From contig JBNJKM010000001.1 of the NCBI GenBank assembly GCA_051751085.1, positions 135,314-199,313 of the forward strand: DNA of 64,000 nt, written 5' to 3'. The DNA is from Actinomycetota bacterium. GTDB taxonomy: Bacteria > Actinomycetota > Actinomycetes > Actinomycetales > Microbacteriaceae. The translations under genes were made by a program, and so were the position numbers. Each line of letters starts with the position of its first letter. Position 1 is the first letter of the stretch. The notes beneath the pieces were generated by a model. That model saw only the letters and a program-made list of their open reading frames with translations. It made no database searches and was not told the DNA's origin. Shown here in pieces: positions 19,215 through 48,598 of the stretch.

Positions 19215-20222
19215 GTGACGGAGACCACTGGCAACGAGCCGACCGGCACCGCGCCCGACCGCAGCGGCCCCGTCGGCCCGGTCGACGCATCCGTCGTGCC
19301 CCGCTACGCGGGCATCGCGACCTTCGCGCGGCTGCCGCGCATCGAGGACGTGCCGCGCGCCGACGTCGCCGTCGTGGGCGTGCCGTTCGACACGGGCGTC
19401 AGCTACCGGCCGGGCACGCGCTTCGGGCCGTCGCACGTGCGCGAGTCGTCGCGGCTGCTGCGGCCGTACAACCCCGCGCAGGACGTGTCGCCGTTCGCGG
19501 TCGCGCAGGTCGTCGACGCGGGCGACTTCCCCGTGAACCCGTTCGACATCCAGGAGGCGGTGCTCGAGGTCGAGCGCGCCGCGACCGAGCTCGGCGAGCG
19601 GGCGACGCGGATCGTGACGATCGGCGGCGACCACACGATCGCGCTGCCGCTGCTGCGCGCGGTCGCGAAGCAGCACGGGCCGGTCGCGGTGCTGCACTTC
19701 GACGCGCACCTCGACACCTGGGACACCTACTTCGGTGCGCCCGTCACGCACGGCACGCCCTTCCGGCGCGCGAGCGAGGAGGGGCTCATCGACCTCACCG
19801 CGAGCTGCCACGTGGGCACGCGCGGGCCGCTGTACTCGAAGCAGGACCTCGAGGACGACGAGCGGCTCGGCTTCTCGATCGTCTCGAGCGAGTACGTCGA
19901 GGAGCGCGGCGCCGAGGCGGCGATCCAGCGGATGCGCGACCGCATCGGCGACAAGCCGCTCTACATCTCGGTCGACATCGACGTGCTCGACCCCGCGCAC
20001 GCGCCCGGCACGGGCACGCCTGAAGCTGGTGGGCTGACGAGCCGCGAGCTGCTGCGGATGCTGCGGAGCCTGGGCGACAAGCACATCGTGGGCGCCGACG
20101 TCGTCGAGGTGTCGCCCGCGTACGACCACGCGCAGATGACCGGCATCGCTGCGAGCCACGTCGTCTACGAGCTCGTGACGCTGCTGGCGGCGCAGGCGGG
20201 GCGGATGCGCGAGGCCGAGTAG
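19215..20222 (+). CDS. speB: Agmatinase / guanidinobutyrase (ureohydrolase)
   Basis: GGDHT, HFDAHLD, SHGT-like [21 protein letters not shown]; exact substrate cannot be told from sequence. Confidence 0.88.
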
Positions 20223-20262
20223 CCCTCCTCCGCTGATCGAGCCGCACGCGTCGACCCGCCGC

Positions 20263-20453
20263 TGGTCGAGCCGCACGCGCCGCAGGCGCGCGCGAGTCGA
20301 GACCACGCCGGTGGTCGAGCCGCACGCGCCGCAGGCGCGCGCGAGTCGAGACCACGCCGCTGGTCGAGCCGCACGCGCCGCAGGCGCGCGCGAGTCGAGA
20401 CCACGCCGCTGGTCGAGCCGCACGCGCCGCAGGCGCGCGCGAGTCGAGACCAC
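20263..20453. repeat. Tandem array of four 49-bp REP family 1 units
   Basis: Unit TGGTCGAGCCGCACGCGCCGCAGGCGCGCGCGAGTCGAGACCACGCCGC at 20263, 20312, 20361 and 20410; partial copy at about 20230-20250. Confidence 0.95.
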
Positions 20454-20485
20454 TCGCCGACGGCCGCACTCCCGACGGCGTCACC

Positions 20486-21595
20486 TCAGACGGCGACCTC
20501 CACCGAGACCGACAACACCTGCCCGCGGAAGGCGGCGACCCGCGCGACCTGCTCCTCGAGCGCGGTCGTCGGCGGCGTGCCGGCCTCGGCGAACCACGAG
20601 ACGGCGAGAGCGTCGCGGCTCATGCGCCACGTGCCGGCGACCACGCCACCCGCGACGACGAGGTTCGCGCCGTTCGAGACGAGCGAGCGCCGCGCGGGCG
20701 GCACGACTCGCGAGTCGGCCGTGCCCGGGCCCAGCACCCACGGGTCGAACGCGGGCAGCAGCACCACGGCATCCGACGGCTCGGCGGCCTCGAGCTCGGC
20801 GACGTCGGCGGTCCGCAGGAGCAGCTCCTCACCATCCACCTCGACGGTCGCCACCTCGCCGCCGAGATCGCGCAGCCACCCCTCGAGGCGCCGGCGCGGC
20901 ACGCCGAGCCCCTCCGTCAGCCAGTAGCCGAGGTTGGCCGCGGTCGCCGGACCGTACGCCTCGAGGTAGAGGAGGCACGCGCGCCGACCCGCCTCGTCGA
21001 GTTCCGGCAGGCCTGGCCAGCGAGGGTCGCCCTCGAGCAGTCGGAACGTCGACTGCCCGTCGCGTGCCGGCCCGAAGCAGATGTCGCCCCACCAGTGCAG
21101 CGGCTTGAAGAGCGCATCGGCGCCGCTGCCGGAGGTCGCGGCCTCGGCGAGGTGCCGCAGCGCGGGGATGCGCGCGAGGTGCGCGCCCACCTCCGATCGC
21201 GTCATCGGGCCGGTGCGCAGCGCATCCCGCACGGCATCGCGCAGCGGCGCCCAGTCGTCGATGGCGAAGCCGCCCTGCCGCTGCCAGCGAGCCGTCTCCC
21301 AGACGCGCGTCGCGGTGCGCGCGGCGAGCAGCACGGAGGCCGCGTCGTGCGTGAAGACGTACGAGCCGCCGCGGAACGCGTAGCTGCGCACCAGCTCGCC
21401 GTCGTCGAGCGCTCGCTCGAGGGCGCCCGGCCGCGGGTCGGTCTGCCGCATGGCGACGGAGAGCTCCGCCGACTCCATGAGCCAGCCGCGCACCGCGACG
21501 ACGCGGCGGATGGTGTCGGTCGCGTCGGCGGGCAGGGCAGGGTCGAGGCCGTGGCGGCGCAGCCGCCAGCCGAGCGCCTGCGCTCCGTCGATCAC
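20486..21595 (-). CDS. Winged-helix HTH_42 (AlkZ/YcaQ-like) DNA glycosylase family protein, divergent
   Basis: Overall layout, YL.AYGPAT...L.YW, LLPAFDPWVLG, GGVVAGTW; the catalytic QxQ position reads RGW. Confidence 0.75.
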   Translation of the reverse strand: MIDGAQALGWRLRRHGLDPALPADATDTIRRVVAVRGWLMESAELSVAMRQTDPRPGALERALDDGELVRSYAFRGGSYVFTHDAASVLLAARTATRVWETARWQRQGGFAIDDWAPLRDAVRDALRTGPMTRSEVGAHLARIPALRHLAEAATSGSGADALFKPLHWWGDICFGPARDGQSTFRLLEGDPRWPGLPELDEAGRRACLLYLEAYGPATAANLGYWLTEGLGVPRRRLEGWLRDLGGEVATVEVDGEELLLRTADVAELEAAEPSDAVVLLPAFDPWVLGPGTADSRVVPPARRSLVSNGANLVVAGGVVAGTWRMSRDALAVSWFAEAGTPPTTALEEQVARVAAFRGQVLSVSVEVAV

Positions 21596-22135: not shown

Positions 22136-25100
22136 TCAGGCGGCGAGCGCCTTCTTCACCCGCTGCAGGCTGACCGGCCCGGAGGTGCCGAGCTGCTGCG
22201 CGAAGAGGCTGACCCGCAGCTCCTCGAGCAGCCAGCGGGCGGTGATGAGCCGCTCGGCCTTCGGCCATCCGTCGGTGCCCGGGACGGCATCCGTCACCGC
22301 TCGCGCGAGCGGCAGCGTGCCGCCCGCCTCGGTGAAGAGCGCGGTCGCCTGCTCGACCTCGGTCATCCAGATGCGGTCGCGGTGCGCGGTCTCGGGGAGG
22401 CGCTTGACGCGGTGCTCGATCGCGCGCACGTAGACCTCGAGCCGCCCGAGCCTGGCGAGGCCCGTGCGGCTGACGAAGCCGTCGAAGACGAGCTGGTCGA
22501 GGTGCGCGCGGGCGTCGGCGAGCGCGGCCATGTGCGCGAGGCTCGCGCCGTCGCGGATCGCGCGGTCGGCGAGCCGGGCGGAGGTGAGGATGCGCGCCAC
22601 CTGCGAGGCGAGCGCGAACAGCCGGTCGACGAGGCCGTCGGCGACGCGGGCCCGCAGCGCCTCGAAGTCGGCGACCGTCGCGGGCGGCGCGGTGCCGAGC
22701 TCGGCGTCGATGATCGCGAGCATGAGGTCGTCGAAGAGGCGGTCGGTCGACGGGTAGGGGCTCGCGCCGAGCGCGAGCTTCTCGGCCGCTGTGAGGTTCG
22801 ACTGCACGTAGGGCCCGGGGCTCGGCACCTGCCGCAGCAGCAGCTGCCGCACCGCCGCGCGCTGGTCGCGCTGCTGCGCCTCGCGCGTCGACGCGAGCCG
22901 GATGCTGACCGTCGCCTTCCCGCCCTTGCCCGCGCTCGTGATCGCGTAGCCCGGGTAGGCCCGCACCGTGTTGCCGCCCTGCCGCACGTCGATGTGCTCG
23001 GGCAGCTCGACGTCGAAGCCCGTCACCTCGTCGCGCTCCAGGTCGCTCGTCACCTTGACCGCGGCCTTCGCGACCTGCGCGGTCGCCTGCTGGCCGAAGC
23101 GACGCTTGAGCGCCTCGAGGTCCTTGTCGGCCCCGAGTCGGCGGCCGCGGCCGTCCTCGACGGCGAAGGTGGGCTTGAGGTGCTCGGGGATGCGGTGCCA
23201 GTCGACATCGCTCGCGGCCGCCTGCACGTAGGCGGTGCGGGAGATGCGCGCGGCCAGCACCTCTGCGATGGAGGCGGGCCGGTCGCTGCCCTTGCCGGCC
23301 GCGGCGGGCTCGGACGGCAGGTCGGCGAGCATGCCGCGCGCCCAGTCGGCTGCCGGGACGACGTGCTTGCGCACGTGCTTCGGCAGGCTCTTGATCATCG
23401 CGGTCAGCAGCTCCTCCCGCATGCCGGGCACGAGCCAGTCGAAGCCCTCCGGCGTAATGCGCGGCAGCACCGCGAGCGGCACGTGCACGGTGACGCCGTC
23501 GTCCGTGGCGCCCGGCTCGAACCGGTAGCTGAGCCGCAGCCGCTGCTCGCCCTGCTGCCACTTCGTCGGGAACGCCTCCTGGTCGACGCGGGCGTCCTCG
23601 CCGGTGAGGTCCTCGCGCGTCATCGTCAGCAGCTCGGGACGGGTCTTCCGCTCCTCGCGCCACCACCCCTCGAAGCTGCGGGTGGAGGCCACGTCGGCGG
23701 GGATGCGCGCGTCGAAGAAGTCGAAGACGGCCTCGTCGCCGACCAGCAGGTCGCGGCGGCGCTGGCGCTCCTCGAGCCGCTCGATCTCGCGGCGCAGCTC
23801 CTTGTTCTTGCGGTCGAAGTCCTGCGGGCTGTCCCACTCGCCGTCGACGAGCGCGTGCCGGATGAACAGCTCGCGCGCGTGCTCGGGGTCGATGCGCGAG
23901 AACTGCACGCGCCGCCGCTCGACGATCGTGACGCCGAAGAGCGTCACCTTCTCGAAGGCGACGACGGCGCCCTGCTTGCGCTCCCAGTGGGGCTCCGAGA
24001 CCTGGCGCTTCGCGAGGTCGCCCGCGAGCGGCTCGGCCCACGCGAGGTCGATGGATGCGACGTTGCGGGCGAAGAGCCGGCTCGTCTCGACGAGCTCGGC
24101 GGCCATCACGGAGCGCGGCGGCTTCTTGGCGAGGGCCGAACCGGGGAAGATCTGGAACCGCGCGCCACGCGCGCCGAGGTACTCGGGCCGCACGCGCATC
24201 CGCCGCTTGTCGCCCTTGTCGCCGGGCCGCGACTGCTGCGGCTTCTGCGTCTCGTCGAGCGTGCCGATGCGGCCGAGGAGGCCGGAGAGGAGCGCCTTGT
24301 GGACGGCGTCGGCGTCGACGGAGGCGGCGAGCGAGCCGGGGGCCCCGTCCGCTGGTCGAGCCGCCTCCTCCGCTGGTCGAGCCGCACGCGCCGCACCGTC
24401 CGCTGGTCGAGCCGCACGCGCCGCAGGCGCGCGCGAGTCGAGACCACTGCTGTCGTCTCGAGACGCGCCTTCGGTGCTCCTCGACGAGCGACGCTCCGGC
24501 TTCAGCCCCATCGCCCGGGTCAGCTGCCGCACGACGTCCTGCCACTCGCGCACGCGCAGGAACGACAGGTGCTCCGCCTTGCACGCCTTCCTGAACTGGT
24601 TGCCCGAGAGCGCCGCCTGCTGCGCCTGCAGGTGCCGCCAGAGCGCGAGCAGCGTGATGAAGTCGCTCGTCGGGTCGGTGAAGCGCGCGTGCGAGCGGTC
24701 GGCCTCCTCGCGCCGCTCGAGCGGACGCTCCCGGGGGTCCTGGATCGTCAGGCCGGCGACGATCGCGATGACCTCGTGGGCGACGTCCGCGTCCCGGCCG
24801 GCCAACGCCATCCGCCCGAACCTCGGGTCGACGGGCAGGCGCGCGAGCTCGCGCCCGATCCTCGTGATGTCGCCCTTCGCCGAGATGGCGCCGAGCTCGC
24901 GCAGCAGGTCGTGGCCGTCCTTGATGCCGCGCGGGTCGGGCGGCTGGAGGAACGGGAACTCCTCGAGCGGACCGAGCCCGAGCGACGCGGCCTGCAGGAT
25001 GACGGCAGCAAGATTCGTGCGGAGGATCTCGGGGTCGGTGAACGCGGGGCGCTTGTCGAAGTCGTCCTCGGCGTAGAGGCGGATCGCGATGCCCGGCGCG

Positions 25101-26244: not shown

Positions 26245-26306
26245 GCGGACCCCAGTTCGGCAGCCGGACCCGCGATCGCGGGTCCGTCTGCCGAACTCGG
26301 GTCCGG
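26245..26306. repeat. 62-bp four-box palindrome (family 2), copy A
   Basis: GCGGACCC-N12-CGGACCC-GCGATCGC-GGGTCCG-N12-GGGTCCGG. Confidence 0.95.
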
Positions 26307-26376: not shown

Positions 26377-27327
26377 ATGGCCGTGGGGAAGCAGCACGAT
26401 GCACCCGCTCTGCATCGGGCGAGGAGCCTCGCCGGCGCCGATGTCGGGGTCCAGCCCGAACGAGAGCCGTCGCTCGCGCGGGTGCGCTACGGCGTCTATG
26501 CCGATGCGGCGGAGCTCGAGGTTGCGAGCCGCGAGGCCTCGTACCTCGCGCTCGTGCGGTCGGTCGCGATCACGCGCGACCAGCCCGTATTCGCGCGTGA
26601 GTCAGCGCTCGCCGTCCACGGCATCCCCTTCGGGCTCGCACCTGATGCCGTGTTCACCATCGGCGACGAGCGCACCGCCAGGAAGAAGGCGGGCGTGATC
26701 CACGCCGTCACGGTGCTCGATCCGATCGACGTCACGACCGTCGGCGAGCTGCTCGTCTGCACGGTGGAGCATGCGCTCGCAGACGTTGCTCGGCGGCGCG
26801 AGGTGGTCGTGGCAGTCGCCGCTCTCGACTGGGCGCTGCGGAATGGGCTCGCCAGCAAGGACGGCGTGCTCGAGGCGCTCGGTCGGCAGGGAAAGCGAGG
26901 GCGGGCCGCCGCGGAGTGGGCGATCGCGTTCGCCGACGCGGCCGCCGAATCGGTCGGTGAGTCCTACAGTCGCGTGCGGCTGCATCAGCTCGGCTTCGCG
27001 ATCCCCGAGCTGCAGGCGCTCGTCGTCGGCAGGAGCGGCAAGGAGTATCGCGTCGATGCGAAGTGGTCGTTCAGCGATCGGCGCCCGCTGTTCGGTGAGT
27101 TCGACGGCATGCAGAAGTACGGCGAGCTTGCGAACCGCGCCGGGAAGTCCGGTGCGGCGGCGCTGGCGCAGGAGAAGGCGCGCGAGGACGACATACGTTT
27201 CCGAGGCGACGTCATGCGCTGGGTCTGGGACGAGATGATCCAGCCACGGCGCTTCGAGCGGCTGCTGCTGGCGCACCGCGTGCCGCGGGTACGCGCTGCG
27301 CTGCCGGAAGCGCTCCTCCGCGGCTGA
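26377..27327 (+). CDS. Orphan AbiEi-like wHTH plus DUF559/Vsr-like putative nuclease domain protein
   Basis: RVRYGVY, ESALAVHG, TVEHALADVAR, AESVGES.SRVRL..LGF.IPELQ, RVD...GEFDG.QKY...EK.RED...RW.W; family assignment from recalled motifs. Confidence 0.75.
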   Translation: MAVGKQHDAPALHRARSLAGADVGVQPEREPSLARVRYGVYADAAELEVASREASYLALVRSVAITRDQPVFARESALAVHGIPFGLAPDAVFTIGDERTARKKAGVIHAVTVLDPIDVTTVGELLVCTVEHALADVARRREVVVAVAALDWALRNGLASKDGVLEALGRQGKRGRAAAEWAIAFADAAAESVGESYSRVRLHQLGFAIPELQALVVGRSGKEYRVDAKWSFSDRRPLFGEFDGMQKYGELANRAGKSGAAALAQEKAREDDIRFRGDVMRWVWDEMIQPRRFERLLLAHRVPRVRAALPEALLRG

Positions 27328-27348: not shown

Positions 27349-27410
27349 GCGGACCCGAGTTCGGCATGCGGACCCGCGATCCCAGGTCCGGCTGCCGAAC
27401 TGGGGTCCGC
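27349..27410. repeat. 62-bp four-box palindrome, copy B (inverted relative to A)
   Basis: GCGGACCC GAGTTCGGCATG CGGACCC GCGATCCC AGGTCCG GCTGCCGAACTG GGGTCCGC. Confidence 0.95.
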
Positions 27411-43911: not shown

Positions 43912-45905
<1,994 letters not shown>

Positions 45906-45921
45906 CCGCGACCGCGCGCAT

Positions 45922-45983
45922 CCGGACCCGAGTCCGGCAGCCGGACCCCCGATCGGGGGTCCGCCTGCCGAGCTCGGGTCCGT
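45922..45983. repeat. 62-bp four-box palindrome, copy C
   Basis: CCGGACCC GAGTCCGGCAGC CGGACCC CCGATCGG GGGTCCG CCTGCCGAGCTC GGGTCCGT. Confidence 0.93.
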
Positions 45984-45991
45984 TCGCGTTC

Positions 45992-46053
45992 GCGGACCCG
46001 TTCCACCGGGGCGGACCCGGTGCACCGGGTCCCGGATGGTGGAGCGGGTCCGC
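45992..46053. repeat. 62-bp four-box palindrome, divergent copy E
   Basis: GCGGACCC GTTCCACCGGGG CGGACCC GGTGCACC GGGTCCC GGATGGTGGAGC GGGTCCGC; same boxes and length, different but still partly self-pairing spacers. Confidence 0.85.
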
Positions 46054-46083
46054 GTGCCCTGCCAGGTCGGCGACGGGCGCGCG

Positions 46084-46743
46084 TCAGCGCAGCAGCGCCG
46101 CGATCCGCGGGCCGAGCGCCGCCGCGACCCGCTCCGGGTCGCGATCGCCGCCCGCGACCAGGAACGAGTGGTCGCCGCCCGCGACCCAGTCGACCCGCGC
46201 ATCCGGCAGCCGGGCGACGACGTGGTCGAGCGCGTCCCCCGACTGGAACGGGTCGTTCGTGCCCTGCAGGAACCGCTGCGGCAGGGCGATGTCGCCGAGG
46301 TGGGCGTCGCGGATGCGCTCCGGCCGGCCGGGCGGGTGCAGCGGGTAGCCGAGGTAGACGAGGCCCGCCGCCGGCATGCCGGCCGTGACCGCGGCTGCGG
46401 CCATCCGCCCGCCGAGGGACTTGCCGCCGGCCCAGGGCGGGTGCGGCAGGAGCCCTTCGGCGGCGGCCATCACGGCGAGCCACGTCGCGATCGCGCTCGG
46501 CTCGCGCTCCGGCTGTCGCTTGCCGGCCTGCGCGTTCGGGAAGCTCGCGCGCAGCACCGCGATGCCCTCGCCGACGAGTCCGCGCGCGACGCCCGCCATC
46601 CACGGATGCGTCGCCGAGCCGCCCGCGCCGTGCAGCAGCACGATGCTCGCCCACGCGTCGGCGGGCACCTCGACGATCGCGTCGACGTGCGGCACCGTCG
46701 GGTGCTCGATCGCGACGGGCACGACGCGGTGGGAGGCATCCAT
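46084..46743 (-). CDS. Alpha/beta hydrolase (KANL3/Tex30-like)
   Basis: HGAGG, GGKSLGGRMA nucleophile elbow, LGYPLHPPG, LQGTNDPF, GGDHSF. Confidence 0.9.
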   Translation of the reverse strand: MDASHRVVPVAIEHPTVPHVDAIVEVPADAWASIVLLHGAGGSATHPWMAGVARGLVGEGIAVLRASFPNAQAGKRQPEREPSAIATWLAVMAAAEGLLPHPPWAGGKSLGGRMAAAAVTAGMPAAGLVYLGYPLHPPGRPERIRDAHLGDIALPQRFLQGTNDPFQSGDALDHVVARLPDARVDWVAGGDHSFLVAGGDRDPERVAAALGPRIAALLR

Positions 46744-46780
46744 CCCTCGAGCTTCCCACGCGGCGCGCCGGCCGCCTCGT

Positions 46781-46842
46781 GCGGACCCGAGTTCGGCAGA
46801 CGGACCCGCGATCGCGGGTCCGCGTGCCGAGCTCGGGTCCGC
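46781..46842. repeat. 62-bp four-box palindrome, copy D
   Basis: GCGGACCC GAGTTCGGCAGA CGGACCC GCGATCGC GGGTCCG CGTGCCGAGCTC GGGTCCGC. Confidence 0.95.
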
Positions 46843-46852
46843 CTGGGGTGTG

Positions 46853-47446
46853 TCAGGCGCCCACGAGCGCTGCGGCGGGTCGCGGCGCCCGCGCGCGGTC
46901 CTTCGCGCCGTCGGCGGCGACGAGCGCGAGCCACGCGGCGCGCTGCTCGGGGCTGGACGTGCGCACCGGGCCGAGCCGCCGCATCCGCACGGGGCTGATG
47001 CCGCAGAGCCCGAGGGTGCCCGTCCGCAGCTGGTCGAGCCGGGTGTCGGGCAGCAGCGGCGCGAGCCAGCTCGGGGTGTCGGCGGTCGCGATGATGCGGC
47101 CCGTGCGGCCGGTGAGCAGCCCCTCGGGCGTCGCGCCCTTGTAGCGGTAGTCCTCCTGCGGCAGCAGCGCGCGGTCGAGGAAGCCCTTGAGCATCGCGGG
47201 GGTCGAGCGCCACCAGACCGGCGTGGCGATGACGATGTGGTCTGCGTCGCGGATCGCCTGCCGGGCGTCGGCGAGGTCGGGCTCGATGGGCATGCGTTGG
47301 GTGTAGCCGAAGCGGAGGTGCACGTCGAAGTCGAGGTCGCGCAGCGCCAGGAGGCGGCTGTCGCCATGGCCGTCGACGTACGCGCGAGCGAGGGCGGCGA
47401 CGAGGGAGTCGGGGTTGGGATGGGCGTCGATCACGAGGGCGGACAT
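46853..47446 (-). CDS. NAD(P)H-dependent oxidoreductase (flavodoxin-2, MdaB/KefF-like)
   Basis: AHPNPDS, TPVWW.STPAMLKGFLDR, GLLTGRT. Confidence 0.9.
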   Translation of the reverse strand: MSALVIDAHPNPDSLVAALARAYVDGHGDSRLLALRDLDFDVHLRFGYTQRMPIEPDLADARQAIRDADHIVIATPVWWRSTPAMLKGFLDRALLPQEDYRYKGATPEGLLTGRTGRIIATADTPSWLAPLLPDTRLDQLRTGTLGLCGISPVRMRRLGPVRTSSPEQRAAWLALVAADGAKDRARAPRPAAALVGA

Positions 47447-47456
47447 GGCGGTTCCT

Positions 47457-47521
47457 ATCTGGACAGTGTCAACAATCTGGACACCGCCCAGCGTGGCGTA
47501 GGATCTTGCACGTGTCAAGAT
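47457..47521. promoter_or_regulatory. Probable TetR operator sites in the divergent promoter
   Basis: ATCTGGACAGTGTCAAC (47457), ATCTGGACAC (47476) and the near-palindrome ATCTTGCACGTGTCAAGAT (47503-47521) overlapping the TAGGAT -10 element and the start codon. Confidence 0.7.
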
Positions 47522-48096
47522 CGGGCGCCGCCTACCACCACGGGAACCTGCCGGAGGCGCTCGAGCGCGCGGCGATGGGCCTGCTCGAGGCGCAGCCGGC
47601 GGCGGCGATCAGCCTGCGCGAGGTGGCTCGCGCGGCCGGCGTCAGCCACAACGCGCCGTACCACCACTTCGGCGATCGCCGGGCGCTGCTCAAGGCGCTC
47701 GCCGAGCGCAGCATGGCCGCGCTGCTCGAGTCGCAGCGCGAGGCGGCGGCGATCGACGGGCCGGCAGGCAGCCTGCGGGAGATCGCGCGCGACTACGTGC
47801 GCTTCGCCGCGGAGCGCCCGCACGCCTTCGCCGTCGTCTATGACCCGACGGTGTGCGTCCCCGGGCAGCCGACCGCCGCGATGGCCCCGCTCATCGCGGC
47901 AGAGGAGGCGCTCGTCGGCGACGCGGTGCGGGCCGCCATGCCCGATCTCGACGAGCCGGCGGTCGCGGCGATGACGGCGGCCGCATGGGGCGCCGCCCAC
48001 GGCCTCGCGCAGCTGGCCCAAGCCGGGCACCTCGCGCTCGACGAGGCGCTCGCCGCGGTCGACGCGCTCATCGCCCGGCTGGTGCGCTCCGACTGA
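47512..48096 (+). CDS. TetR family regulator (WHG-type C-terminal domain)
   Basis: YHHGNL, SLREVARAAGVSHNAPYHHF, WGAAHGL. Confidence 0.92.
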   Translation: MSRSGAAYHHGNLPEALERAAMGLLEAQPAAAISLREVARAAGVSHNAPYHHFGDRRALLKALAERSMAALLESQREAAAIDGPAGSLREIARDYVRFAAERPHAFAVVYDPTVCVPGQPTAAMAPLIAAEEALVGDAVRAAMPDLDEPAVAAMTAAAWGAAHGLAQLAQAGHLALDEALAAVDALIARLVRSD

Positions 48097-48175
48097 GTCG
48101 CCCCGCTCCCGCACTCTCCACAAGCAGGCGGATGCGTCGCACGCGCGAGCACCCGCCTCTGCCATCGTGCGGGCC

Positions 48176-48598
48176 ATGGAGCGATCGATCACCGACGATG
48201 CCGAGTCCTACGTGCGCGGCCTGCTCGACGAGTGGCTCGCGCCGCTCGTGGGCGAGTGCCTCGCCTGCTACCTCGACCGCGTGCTCGAGTACCAGGAGTG
48301 CGACGGCAGCCTGCGGTTCGCGAAGCACTACCGCGACCTCGCCGCGCCCCGCGCGACGCGCGTCGAGCAGCGGCTCGAGGCGAGCGGCGGCTTCTGCGAC
48401 TGCGAGGTGCTCGCCAACGTGGTGCAGCCGGCATGGCACCTGTGGACGACGAGCCGCGAGGTCGACGTCGACGGCCAGTCGATCGTGCTCGAGGCCGAGC
48501 CGCCGGACGGCATGCCGCCGTGCGCGGGCGTCCGGCGCGGCTCGACGCAGCCGTGCGTGCACTGGCACCGGATGCGGCGGCCCCGGATGCCGTACTGA
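48176..48598 (+). CDS. DUF2695-like Cys-rich protein
   Basis: ECL.CY, GGFCDCEVL.N, CAGVRRGSTQPC. Confidence 0.7.
   Translation: MERSITDDAESYVRGLLDEWLAPLVGECLACYLDRVLEYQECDGSLRFAKHYRDLAAPRATRVEQRLEASGGFCDCEVLANVVQPAWHLWTTSREVDVDGQSIVLEAEPPDGMPPCAGVRRGSTQPCVHWHRMRRPRMPY

What the first reader, a model, noticed from the sequence alone, without database searches (positions are those of the whole stretch)
45922..46842. Second set of 62-bp palindromes brackets an unrelated cargo gene, and one copy shows compensatory change
Copies C and E (45922-45983, 45992-46053) and D (46781-46842) enclose only the alpha/beta hydrolase gene, like a cassette. Copy E has rewritten spacers (TTCCACC pairing with GGTGGAG; core GGTGCACC instead of GCGATCGC) yet keeps the exact 62-bp length and all four CGGACCC-type boxes. 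That indicates selection on box spacing (20-bp period, 8-bp core) and on hairpin formation rather than simple copying. The four-box-with-core geometry recalls recombinase sites such as integron attC or lox-like cores. The element may capture or move passenger genes in trans using the protein at 26377.
Basis: partly seen in the sequence, partly recalled or inferred. Interest (0 to 1): 0.72.

Follow-up and report, generated by a model that had tools for sequence, protein, structure and literature searches.

The report
Hairpin repeats, not a gene cassette
The three 62-base palindromes around the hydrolase gene belong to a repeat family scattered through Agrococcus genomes; the hydrolase is an old, vertically inherited gene that repeats later landed beside, so it is not captured cargo.

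Summary
C (45922-45983), E (45992-46053) and D (46781-46842) are 62-bp near-perfect palindromes with four GGACC(C) boxes. The box period is 19 bp, not 20.

They are 3 of 23 copies in this 2.72-Mb Agrococcus genome: 7 of type T1 (including C, D, A and B) and 16 of type T2 (including E). E is an ordinary T2 member and the ancestral resident of its site. It is not a rewritten C.

The family occurs in 26 of 34 Agrococcus genomes and in none of 119 genomes from other Microbacteriaceae genera.

The cassette reading fails:
- Palindrome-free Agrococcus species already have the gene order AKR-hydrolase-FMN reductase-TetR.
- Nine relatives carry the hydrolase, and none has a D-like copy.
- The palindrome after AKR is present in 19 of 20 relatives, whatever gene follows it.

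The inference of selection on hairpin symmetry is strongly supported. At that one orthologous site, 19 of 29 stem pairs show changes on both sides.

The gene at 26377 encodes an AbiEi-like protein with a nuclease-like tail. It is flanked by palindromes at all 20 orthologous loci examined, and its paralogues at none of 20. This points to a REPIN-like partnership, which remains unproven.

The parts
45922..45983 (.). Copy C. A T1-type 62-bp four-box palindrome, added in this lineage 8 bp from the resident copy E.
   Evidence: The closest relatives have a single non-T1 palindrome at this site.
45992..46053 (.). Copy E. A T2-type palindrome and the ancestral resident at the 3' end of the AKR gene.
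   Evidence: It is one of 16 T2 copies. An orthologous palindrome is present in 19 of 20 relatives, T2-like in G016, G008, G015 and others.
46781..46842 (.). Copy D. A T1-type palindrome 10 bp after the FMN-reductase stop and 34 bp upstream of the hydrolase start. Found only in this genome.
   Evidence: None of the nine other hydrolase-bearing species has a covariance-model hit at this position.
46084..46746 (-). Alpha/beta hydrolase gene (Abhydrolase_11). Ancestral and vertically inherited, not cargo.
   Evidence: Pfam E=6.9e-38. Same position and orientation in 9 relatives and in 3 palindrome-free species. Its tree does not conflict with the species tree.
45051..45905 (+). Aldo/keto reductase gene. 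Its 3' end is the conserved anchor of the C/E site.
   Evidence: Pfam. Syntenic citrate synthase-AKR pair in all 20 relatives.
46853..47518 (-). Flavodoxin-like/FMN reductase gene, with D just after its stop.
   Evidence: Pfam. Present next to the hydrolase in G017, G012 and G046 without a palindrome.
47506..48096 (+). TetR regulator, divergent partner of the reductase gene.
   Evidence: Pfam. Synteny.
48167..48598 (+). Conserved small gene that forms the far anchor of the variable interval.
   Evidence: tblastn in 17 of 20 relatives.
26245..26306 (.). Copy A (T1), 70 bp upstream of the AbiEi-like gene.
26377..27327 (+). AbiEi-like winged-helix protein with a PD-(D/E)xK-like tail. Candidate partner of the palindromes.
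   Evidence: AF2 pLDDT 88. Best PDB match is Rv2827c. D227, E241, D243 and K247 are invariant. Palindromes flank it at 20 of 20 orthologous loci.
27349..27410 (.). Copy B (T1), 21 bp after the stop of the AbiEi-like gene.

Best explanation
C, E and D are three members of a family of 62-bp hairpin palindromes. The layout is [S]GACCC box, about 12-nt spacer, box, 8-bp core, box', spacer', box'. The family is interspersed and almost wholly intergenic, and it is restricted to one large subclade of the genus Agrococcus. It behaves like REP/REPIN elements.

Shown:
- The hydrolase and its neighbours (AKR, FMN reductase, TetR) are an ancestral, vertically inherited gene block.
- E is the old resident palindrome behind the AKR gene and is conserved at that site across the clade.
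- C and D are absent from all the relatives examined, including the sister species. So is the T1 copy at genome C1:20015.
- The hydrolase is therefore bracketed by accident of insertion, not carried.
- Symmetry of the element is kept through evolution.

Inferred:
- C, D and the T1 copy at C1:20015 are later T1 insertions in this lineage. They landed beside or near existing palindromes.
- The element acts as a nucleic-acid hairpin or cruciform. Its conserved boxes are read by the winged-helix domain of the AbiEi-like protein encoded at 26377. This would parallel the structural homologue Rv2827c, which binds four inverted repeats.
- The PD-(D/E)xK-like C-terminal domain of that protein nicks or processes the element.
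- This gives slow copy-and-insert spread, preferentially next to existing copies and in the gene's chromosomal neighbourhood.
- Some copies probably also act as transcript-end or stabilising hairpins, as a side effect.
For: Family and spread:
- 23 copies here in two subfamilies.
- Present in 26 of 34 Agrococcus genomes.
- Absent from 119 genomes of other Microbacteriaceae genera and from 15 of 16 genomes of other families of the order; the sixteenth (G038) has only a marginal match (E 3.5e-4).

The hydrolase is ancestral:
- The same four-gene order occurs without palindromes in G012 and G046. G013 also has it, with insertions.
- The hydrolase tree does not conflict with the species tree.

E is old; C and D are new:
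- An orthologous AKR-3' palindrome occurs in 19 of 20 relatives. The sister species G044 and G016, G008 and G001 have a single non-T1 copy there and no D.
- The other T1+T2 dimer, at C1:20015/20089, is likewise a single non-T1 copy in G044, G001 and G008.

Symmetry is maintained: orthologous site; within the genome.

Partner gene:
- 20 of 20 orthologous loci carry flanking palindromes, 16 on both sides. This includes two separate loci in G005.
- 0 of 20 paralogue loci carry any.
- The two flanking copies are of the same subtype within a species.
- The protein tree conflicts with the species tree and follows the palindrome subtype: G001+G024, G043+G048, G047+G021.
- The fold resembles the AbiEi family with a nuclease-like tail.
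- Rv2827c binds four inverted repeats in its own promoter (PMC7319586).

Clustering: 9 of 21 sites lie in the 193 kb around the gene (P about 6e-6).
Against: - No clean empty site or target-site duplication could be shown. The available relatives are separate species, and their intergenic flanks are too diverged.
- No two copies are identical and copy numbers are low (1-25), so any mobility is slow.
- Most sites are shared between species.
- The gene-palindrome association sits largely at one syntenic locus. It may descend from one ancestral event.
- G020, G011 and G041 keep 2-10 copies with only the paralogue. G044 keeps 23 copies with a pseudogene.
- T2, the majority type here, is not the type that flanks the gene here.
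- The fold match is weak by E-value (0.03, TM about 0.36).
- No nuclease activity or DNA binding has been tested.
Confidence: 0.7

Rival explanations
1. Gene cassette. The palindromes are recombination sites, like attC or lox. They let the hydrolase be captured, excised and moved, with the protein at 26377 supplied in trans.
For: - One gene is bracketed.
- Bracketing occurs more often than chance: 3 genes against 0.17 expected.
- The hydrolase is absent from 11 of 20 clade members.
- G009 has AKR, one palindrome, then FMNred. This looks like an empty site that kept one copy.
Against: - The same gene order exists with no palindromes in the palindrome-free species.
- Nine relatives have the hydrolase without a D copy.
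- The AKR-3' palindrome is there whatever follows it.
- The hydrolase tree does not conflict with the species tree.
- Palindrome sites are not enriched for gene-content breaks: 4-7 of 20 against 9-10 of 30 random intergenic sites.
- The three tyrosine recombinases of the genome lie on other contigs.
Confidence: 0.04
2. Ordinary transcript-end hairpins. The copies are factor-independent terminators or 3' stabilisers that lack a U-tract. Selection on RNA structure keeps them, and gene conversion homogenises them. There is no mobility and no protein partner.
For: - The hairpins are very stable.
- About 12 of 21 sites sit 5-60 bp after a stop codon, including C, E, D and B.
- The AKR-3' site is conserved across the clade with compensatory changes.
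- In G017 an unrelated hairpin occupies D's position.
Against: - No T-run follows the hairpin, and the terminator scan finds nothing.
- Five sites lie between divergent gene starts, including A.
- One copy is read in frame inside DnaX. One forms the tail of an ABC ATPase whose stop overlaps the next start.
- Eight Agrococcus species and all other genera do without them at the same genes.
- New T1 copies sit directly beside an existing hairpin, where a second terminator is not needed.
- The copies are tightly linked to one gene family.
Confidence: 0.13
3. Dispersed operator sites. The palindromes are binding sites of the AbiEi-like protein acting as a regulator or nucleoid organiser. They arise and are kept by selection for binding and are not copied as elements.
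For: - The four-box geometry parallels the four inverted repeats bound by Rv2827c.
- Copy A lies 70-131 bp upstream of the gene's start, where an autoregulatory operator would sit.
- Protein and box subtype co-vary.
Against: - The spacers are free in sequence but are kept complementary. This points to base pairing, not duplex recognition.
- Whole 62-bp units recur with shared spacers, so they are copies and not convergent sites.
- Many copies sit at gene ends or inside reading frames, where regulation is implausible.
- The conserved nuclease-like residues have no role in a plain repressor.
Confidence: 0.1

Closest known systems
REP/REPIN elements with their RAYT partner (REPtrons)
   Same: - Short extragenic palindromes built of two inverted halves.
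- Several subfamilies per genome.
- Clusters and adjacent pairs.
- Vertical persistence with compensatory change.
- A low-copy (one or two per genome) chromosomal gene flanked on both sides by the repeats, with repeat subtype following the protein lineage.
   Different: - No Y1 (PF01797) transposase in the genome.
- No GTAG head.
- The partner is an AbiEi-like winged-helix protein with a PD-(D/E)xK-like tail.
- Copy number is far lower (1-25).
- The host is a high-GC actinobacterium.
- The element has four repeated boxes.
Integron attC sites and gene cassettes
   Same: An imperfect palindrome with paired boxes next to the end of a single promoterless-looking gene.
   Different: - No IntI, attI or cassette array.
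- Fixed 62-bp length and near-perfect pairing.
- Copies on both sides of the gene.
- The gene is ancestral at its locus.
AbiEi/Rv2827c operators (type IV toxin-antitoxin antitoxins)
   Same: The closest solved fold is Rv2827c. That protein binds four inverted repeats arranged as two pairs upstream of its own gene (PMC7319586).
   Different: - No AbiEii/DUF1814 toxin gene follows; the next gene is a cupin.
- The sites are dispersed genome-wide.
- The C-terminal domain carries invariant acidic and lysine residues typical of nucleases.
MITEs such as Correia or Nezha elements
   Same: Small, non-coding, interspersed, hairpin-forming. Sometimes co-transcribed or read into proteins.
   Different: - No terminal inverted repeats distinct from the body.
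- No target-site duplication seen.
- No parent insertion sequence with a transposase.
U-tract-less ('I-shaped') intrinsic terminators proposed for mycobacteria (from my own knowledge)
   Same: A GC-rich hairpin without a U-run just after stop codons in a high-GC actinobacterium.
   Different: A repeated 62-bp unit with conserved boxes. It also occurs in promoter regions and inside reading frames.

Membership tests
Integron cassette / attC | An adjacent integron integrase (tyrosine recombinase) with attI and Pc | tested here: not met
   The PF00589 search of the whole genome finds three genes, on contigs C7, C11 and C4. None is in the window contig C1.
Integron cassette / attC | Cargo gene mobile: found with its site at varied loci and absent from the ancestral locus | tested here: not met
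   The hydrolase is always next to AKR and in the same orientation. This includes palindrome-free species. Its tree does not conflict with the species tree.
Integron cassette / attC | One attC per cassette at the 3' end; variable length (about 57-141 bp) with extrahelical bases | tested here: not met
   Fixed 62 bp. Copies lie on both sides of the gene, with two at one end.
REP/REPIN-RAYT | Short extragenic palindromic repeats, many per genome, formed of two inverted halves | tested here: met
   23 copies, 21 of them intergenic. Self-complementary at 23-28 of 31 positions.
REP/REPIN-RAYT | A Y1 transposase (RAYT, PF01797) in the genome, flanked by the repeats | tested here: not met
   No hits in this genome, while the control genomes do hit. 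The genome is 93.6% complete.
REP/REPIN-RAYT | Conserved GTAG-type head at the 5' end of each REP | tested here: not met
   The invariant positions are the GGACC/GGTCC boxes. There is no GTAG.
REP/REPIN-RAYT | A low-copy partner gene flanked by the repeats, vertically kept, with repeat type matched to protein type | tested here: met
   Met, but with an unrelated protein. 20 of 20 orthologous loci are flanked and 0 of 20 paralogue loci. Subtype follows the protein clade.
MITE | Target-site duplication and clean empty sites | tested here: inconclusive
   Six sites are empty in at least one relative. The flanks are too diverged to define the junctions. No direct repeats are visible at the 23 copies.
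Intrinsic terminator | GC-rich hairpin followed by a U-run at the 3' end of a transcription unit | tested here: not met
   The scan finds none in 45700-47000. Five sites lie in divergent promoter gaps and two lie inside reading frames.
AbiE (type IV toxin-antitoxin) | An AbiEi antitoxin followed by an AbiEii (DUF1814) toxin gene | tested here: not met
   The downstream gene is a cupin. No Pfam or NCBIfam model hits the 26377 protein itself.
AbiE (type IV toxin-antitoxin) | AbiEi two-domain fold with an N-terminal winged helix | tested here: inconclusive
   The best Foldseek match is Rv2827c/1zel: probability 0.97 but E 0.028 and TM 0.35-0.37. The model itself is confident, pLDDT 88.

The most novel reading that the evidence does not exclude
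Agrococcus carries a REPIN-like replicator system whose partner is not a Y1 transposase. The partner is an orphan AbiEi-type winged-helix protein fused to a PD-(D/E)xK-like nuclease. Protein and four-box palindrome diversify together and are exchanged between species as a palindrome-gene-palindrome module. C and D would be its recent products in this lineage.
Probability: 0.35. Interest if true: 0.8.

Novelty: new variant of a known kind. Interest (0 to 1): 0.5.

Why it matters
The cassette idea would have meant a new gene-capture system. The evidence says there is none here.

What remains is a well-defined repeat family, restricted to part of one genus, with unusually clear evidence that hairpin symmetry is preserved at a single orthologous site across some 20 species. 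It is also tightly linked to a gene of a protein family known only from toxin-antitoxin regulation.

If that protein does drive the repeats, REP-like 'resident replicators' have arisen at least twice with unrelated enzymes. An AbiEi-type DNA binder would have been recruited for it. Both claims can be tested with simple binding and nicking assays.

Tried and rejected
- **Restriction-site avoidance.** GGWCC looked about 4.6-fold rare under a base-composition model. It is not rare under a Markov model (O/E 0.87). Dropped.
- **Rfam.** Only sub-threshold chance hits to microRNA and sRNA hairpin models.
- **Clean empty sites and target duplications.** Six sites are empty in some relative, but the flanks are too diverged to fix the junctions.
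- **Palindromes as hot spots of gene turnover.** A control of 30 random intergenic sites gave the same or a higher share of broken synteny: 9-10 of 30, against 4-7 of 20. The control flanks were shorter (200 bp against 300 bp). That biases the control towards 'broken', so the result shows no enrichment but is not precise.
- **Do paralogues of the 26377 gene carry palindromes?** None of 20 loci does. A generic palindrome scan of the two paralogue loci examined also found nothing. In G000 a lone T2 sits where G001 and G044 have the paralogue, but no flanking copies exist there to explain it by recombination.
- **Family assignment of the 26377 protein by sequence.** Nothing in Pfam, NCBIfam or PDB sequences.
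- **Literature.** Nothing found on Agrococcus palindromes, on REP/RAYT in Actinobacteria, or on AbiEi with DUF559.

Full report
**What is in the sequence.**
- The region 45922-46842 holds three 62-bp near-perfect palindromes at exactly the stated coordinates.
- Each has GGACCC at positions 3-8 and 22-27, and GGGTCC at the mirror positions. The core is 8 bp.
- The distance between direct boxes is 19 bp, not 20.
- They bracket one gene, a 220-aa Abhydrolase_11 protein on the minus strand.
- C begins 16 bp after the stop of an aldo/keto reductase (AKR). E ends 30 bp before the hydrolase stop.
- D lies between the hydrolase start (34 bp away) and the stop of a flavodoxin-like FMN reductase (10 bp away).
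- As RNA the hairpins fold at -54 to -59 kcal/mol, with z-scores of -7 to -9.5.
- No T-run follows them, and the terminator scan finds nothing. Rfam has no real match.

**A genome-wide family with two subtypes.**
- The window's genome (2.72 Mb, 22 contigs, 72% G+C) holds 23 copies, found by nhmmer and by a covariance model.
- Seven are type T1 (spacer GAGTTCGGCAG, core GCGATCGC): A, B, C, D and three more.
- Sixteen are type T2 (spacer CTTCCACC, core GGTGCACC), including E.
- E is therefore an ordinary member of the majority type, not a uniquely rewritten copy.
- Within this genome all four GGACC/GGTCC boxes are invariant. Spacers and core differ between types but stay complementary.
- The arrangement T1 plus T2 a few bases apart occurs twice: C/E and C1:20015/20089.

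**Taxonomic range.**
- Record titles place the genome in Agrococcus.
- The model finds the family in 26 of 34 Agrococcus genomes, at 1 to about 25 copies.
- Eight deep-branching species have none.
- None of 119 genomes from 100 other Microbacteriaceae genera has it.
- Nor do 15 of 16 genomes of other families of the order; the sixteenth (G038) has only a marginal match at E 3.5e-4.

**Is the hydrolase cargo?**
- In all 20 relatives fetched, citrate synthase-AKR is a fixed anchor. The content downstream varies.
- The hydrolase is present in nine of them, always directly after AKR and convergent with it.
- With the covariance model, a four-box palindrome lies just after AKR in 19 of 20 relatives. 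The next gene may be the hydrolase, the FMN reductase (G009) or the small conserved gene at 48167.
- None of the nine hydrolase-bearing relatives has a palindrome at D's position.
- Most tellingly, the palindrome-free species G012 and G046 have AKR-hydrolase-FMN reductase-TetR in the same order and orientation as this window. Their gaps are about 90-110 bp and hold no palindrome. G013 has the same order with insertions.
- A hydrolase tree separates that outgroup and recovers the G043/G020/G024 clade of the species tree. Nothing in it conflicts with the species tree.
- The block is therefore ancestral, and the palindromes came later. Absences of the hydrolase are best read as losses.

**Which copies are old and which are new.**
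- The sister species G044 and the next relatives (G016, G008, G001) each have a single non-T1 palindrome after AKR.
- The same holds at the second dimer site. G044, G001 and G008 have one non-T1 copy where this genome has T1+T2.
- So E and C1:20089 are the inherited copies.
- I infer that C, C1:20015 and D are T1 additions in this lineage. Two of them lie within 8-12 bp of a resident palindrome.
- T1 as a type is not new. T1-like copies are shared with G001 and G008 at two other sites.

**Compensatory change, tested properly.**
- The AKR-3' copies of 20 species are descendants at one site, or replacements at one site. They give a stricter test than paralogous copies.
- They differ widely. Spacers include CTTCCACC, CTTTCTCACTGC, CTTCTCGC and CGTCCGCC. 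Cores include GGTGCACC, GTTGCAAC and GATAGATC. Yet 87% of cells pair.
- 19 of 29 pairs have changes on both sides. The covariation score is 0.426, against 0.158 for shuffles (0 of 500 as high) and at most 0.109 with slid partners.
- The first box letter alternates between G and C, and it does so symmetrically. Pairs 3:60 and 22:41 show 12 G:C with 8 C:G, and 11 C:G with 8 G:C, with only one or two unpaired.
- The box is therefore SGACCC. The constraint is on pairing plus box identity.
- Selection on a hairpin and template-switch 'correction' of quasi-palindromes would both give this pattern. I cannot separate them.

**Not simply terminators.**
- Of 21 sites, about 12 lie shortly after a stop codon, in tandem or convergent gene pairs.
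- Five lie between divergent gene starts, including A.
- One T2 copy is read in frame at codon 436 of the 763-aa DnaX.
- One T1 copy forms the C-terminal tail of an ABC ATPase whose TGA overlaps the ATG of the permease.
- Transcription must pass through these last two copies.

**Not hot spots of gene turnover.**
- I joined 300-bp flanks of 20 sites into one query and searched four relatives.
- Most sites are occupied in the relatives as well. Six are empty somewhere, but without clean junctions.
- Flanks were non-collinear at 4-6 of 20 sites in G001 and 5-7 of 20 in G008.
- Thirty random intergenic sites gave 9-10 of 30 and about 10 of 28-30.
- So there is no enrichment.
- Bracketing of single genes is commoner than chance: three cases against 0.17 expected.
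- Nine of 21 sites lie in a 193-kb stretch that includes the 26377 gene.
- This fits insertion near existing copies.

**The protein at 26377.**
I tested it independently.
- Sequence libraries give no family.
- An AlphaFold model is confident (pLDDT 88, pTM 0.85).
- Its best solved match is Rv2827c, an AbiEi-family protein (probability 0.97, but E 0.03 and TM about 0.36).
- Weak matches to PD-(D/E)xK nucleases cover the C-terminal part.
- D227, E241, D243 and K247 are invariant across distant homologues.
- Rv2827c binds four inverted repeats in its own promoter (PMC7319586).
- Across Agrococcus, all 20 orthologous loci in 19 genomes have a flanking palindrome. Sixteen have one on both sides. 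These include two separate loci in G005 and the pseudogene in G044.
- None of 20 loci of a paralogous clade has one.
- The two flanking copies match each other in subtype within a species and differ between species.
- The protein tree conflicts with the species tree. G001 groups with G024, and G008 with G019. The grouping follows palindrome subtype.
- The copies in palindrome-free species are sister to the palindrome-linked clade, which sits on a long branch.
- Caveats:
  - The locus is syntenic, so much of the association may be one inherited event.
  - G020, G011 and G041 keep 2-10 copies with only the paralogue.
  - The species tree rests on 2 kb next to the locus under study.
- No RAYT is present.

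**Verdict.**
- The structural inference (boxes plus hairpin under constraint) is right and now much better supported.
- The cassette/cargo interpretation is wrong.
- C, E and D are members of a REPIN-like palindrome family restricted to part of one genus. They sit in the intergenic gaps of an old gene block.
- The partnership with the AbiEi-like nuclease-tailed protein is the interesting open question. It needs biochemistry.

Noticed in passing
outside the window: genome contig C5:181271-181332: A T2 palindrome is read in frame at codon 436 of DnaX (763 aa), in the Pro/Ala-rich linker between the clamp-loader domains and the C-terminal region. Relatives (G001, G009 and, in a variant form, G044) also carry a palindrome there. 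A very stable hairpin inside dnaX could pause or truncate expression, giving a shorter gamma-like product. This was not tested.
   Followed up: partly
outside the window: genome contig C6:81104-81165: A T1 palindrome is translated as the last ~32 residues of an ABC-transporter ATPase. Its TGA overlaps the ATG of the permease gene. G001 and G008 share the insertion; G009 lacks it.
   Followed up: partly
L060 and L064 (G005:C2:737000-738950 and 2679400-2681350): One Agrococcus species has two copies of the AbiEi-like gene, 63% and 57% identical to this one. They lie at different places, and each is flanked on both sides by palindromes. The palindrome-gene-palindrome unit may itself move or duplicate.
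   Followed up: partly
L075 (G044:C8:157300-159300): In the sister species the AbiEi-like gene has an in-frame TGA and split matches, so it is probably a pseudogene. That genome still has 23 palindromes, and the two flanking copies are type T2, not T1 as here.
   Followed up: partly
window 26377-27327 and relatives: The AbiEi-like protein is only 51-63% identical between species whose neighbouring genes are 80-95% identical. Its tree disagrees with the species tree. This suggests fast evolution and exchange of alleles between species at a fixed locus.
   Followed up: partly
window 45906-48166 compared with L001-L020: The interval between AKR and the small gene at 48167 varies in gene content across the genus. 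It can hold the hydrolase, FMN reductase+TetR, a ~0.7-kb secreted-protein-like ORF in G008, or 2.8 kb in G011. The reductase is 88% identical in the distant G007 but 78% in the closer G009, hinting at recombination.
   Followed up: no
window 20208-20501, 24349-24495; also 9349, 11547, 14276, 52864, 53806: Other repeat families share this window: a 49-bp tandem unit containing GGTCTCGAC...GGCTCGACC motifs, and related 62-nt dispersed copies. They are distinct from the four-box palindromes. The copies at 24349-24495 fall within the hrpA reading frame.
   Followed up: no
outside the window: genome C12:~13677 and C1:~433654: A further palindromic repeat (GTTGAGGGTTTGCGTCCGAGT...ACTCGGACGCAAACCCTCAAC, in pairs) turned up in two of the 30 random control intergenic regions. 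It matches many places in G008.
   Followed up: no
outside the window: genome C1:20015-20808: A second gene, DinB-like and about 175 aa, is bracketed in the same pattern: T1+T2, then the gene on the minus strand, then T2. The gene and its palindrome sites are conserved in G044, G001 and G008 (in G009 only the left site was seen). This bracket is old.
   Followed up: partly
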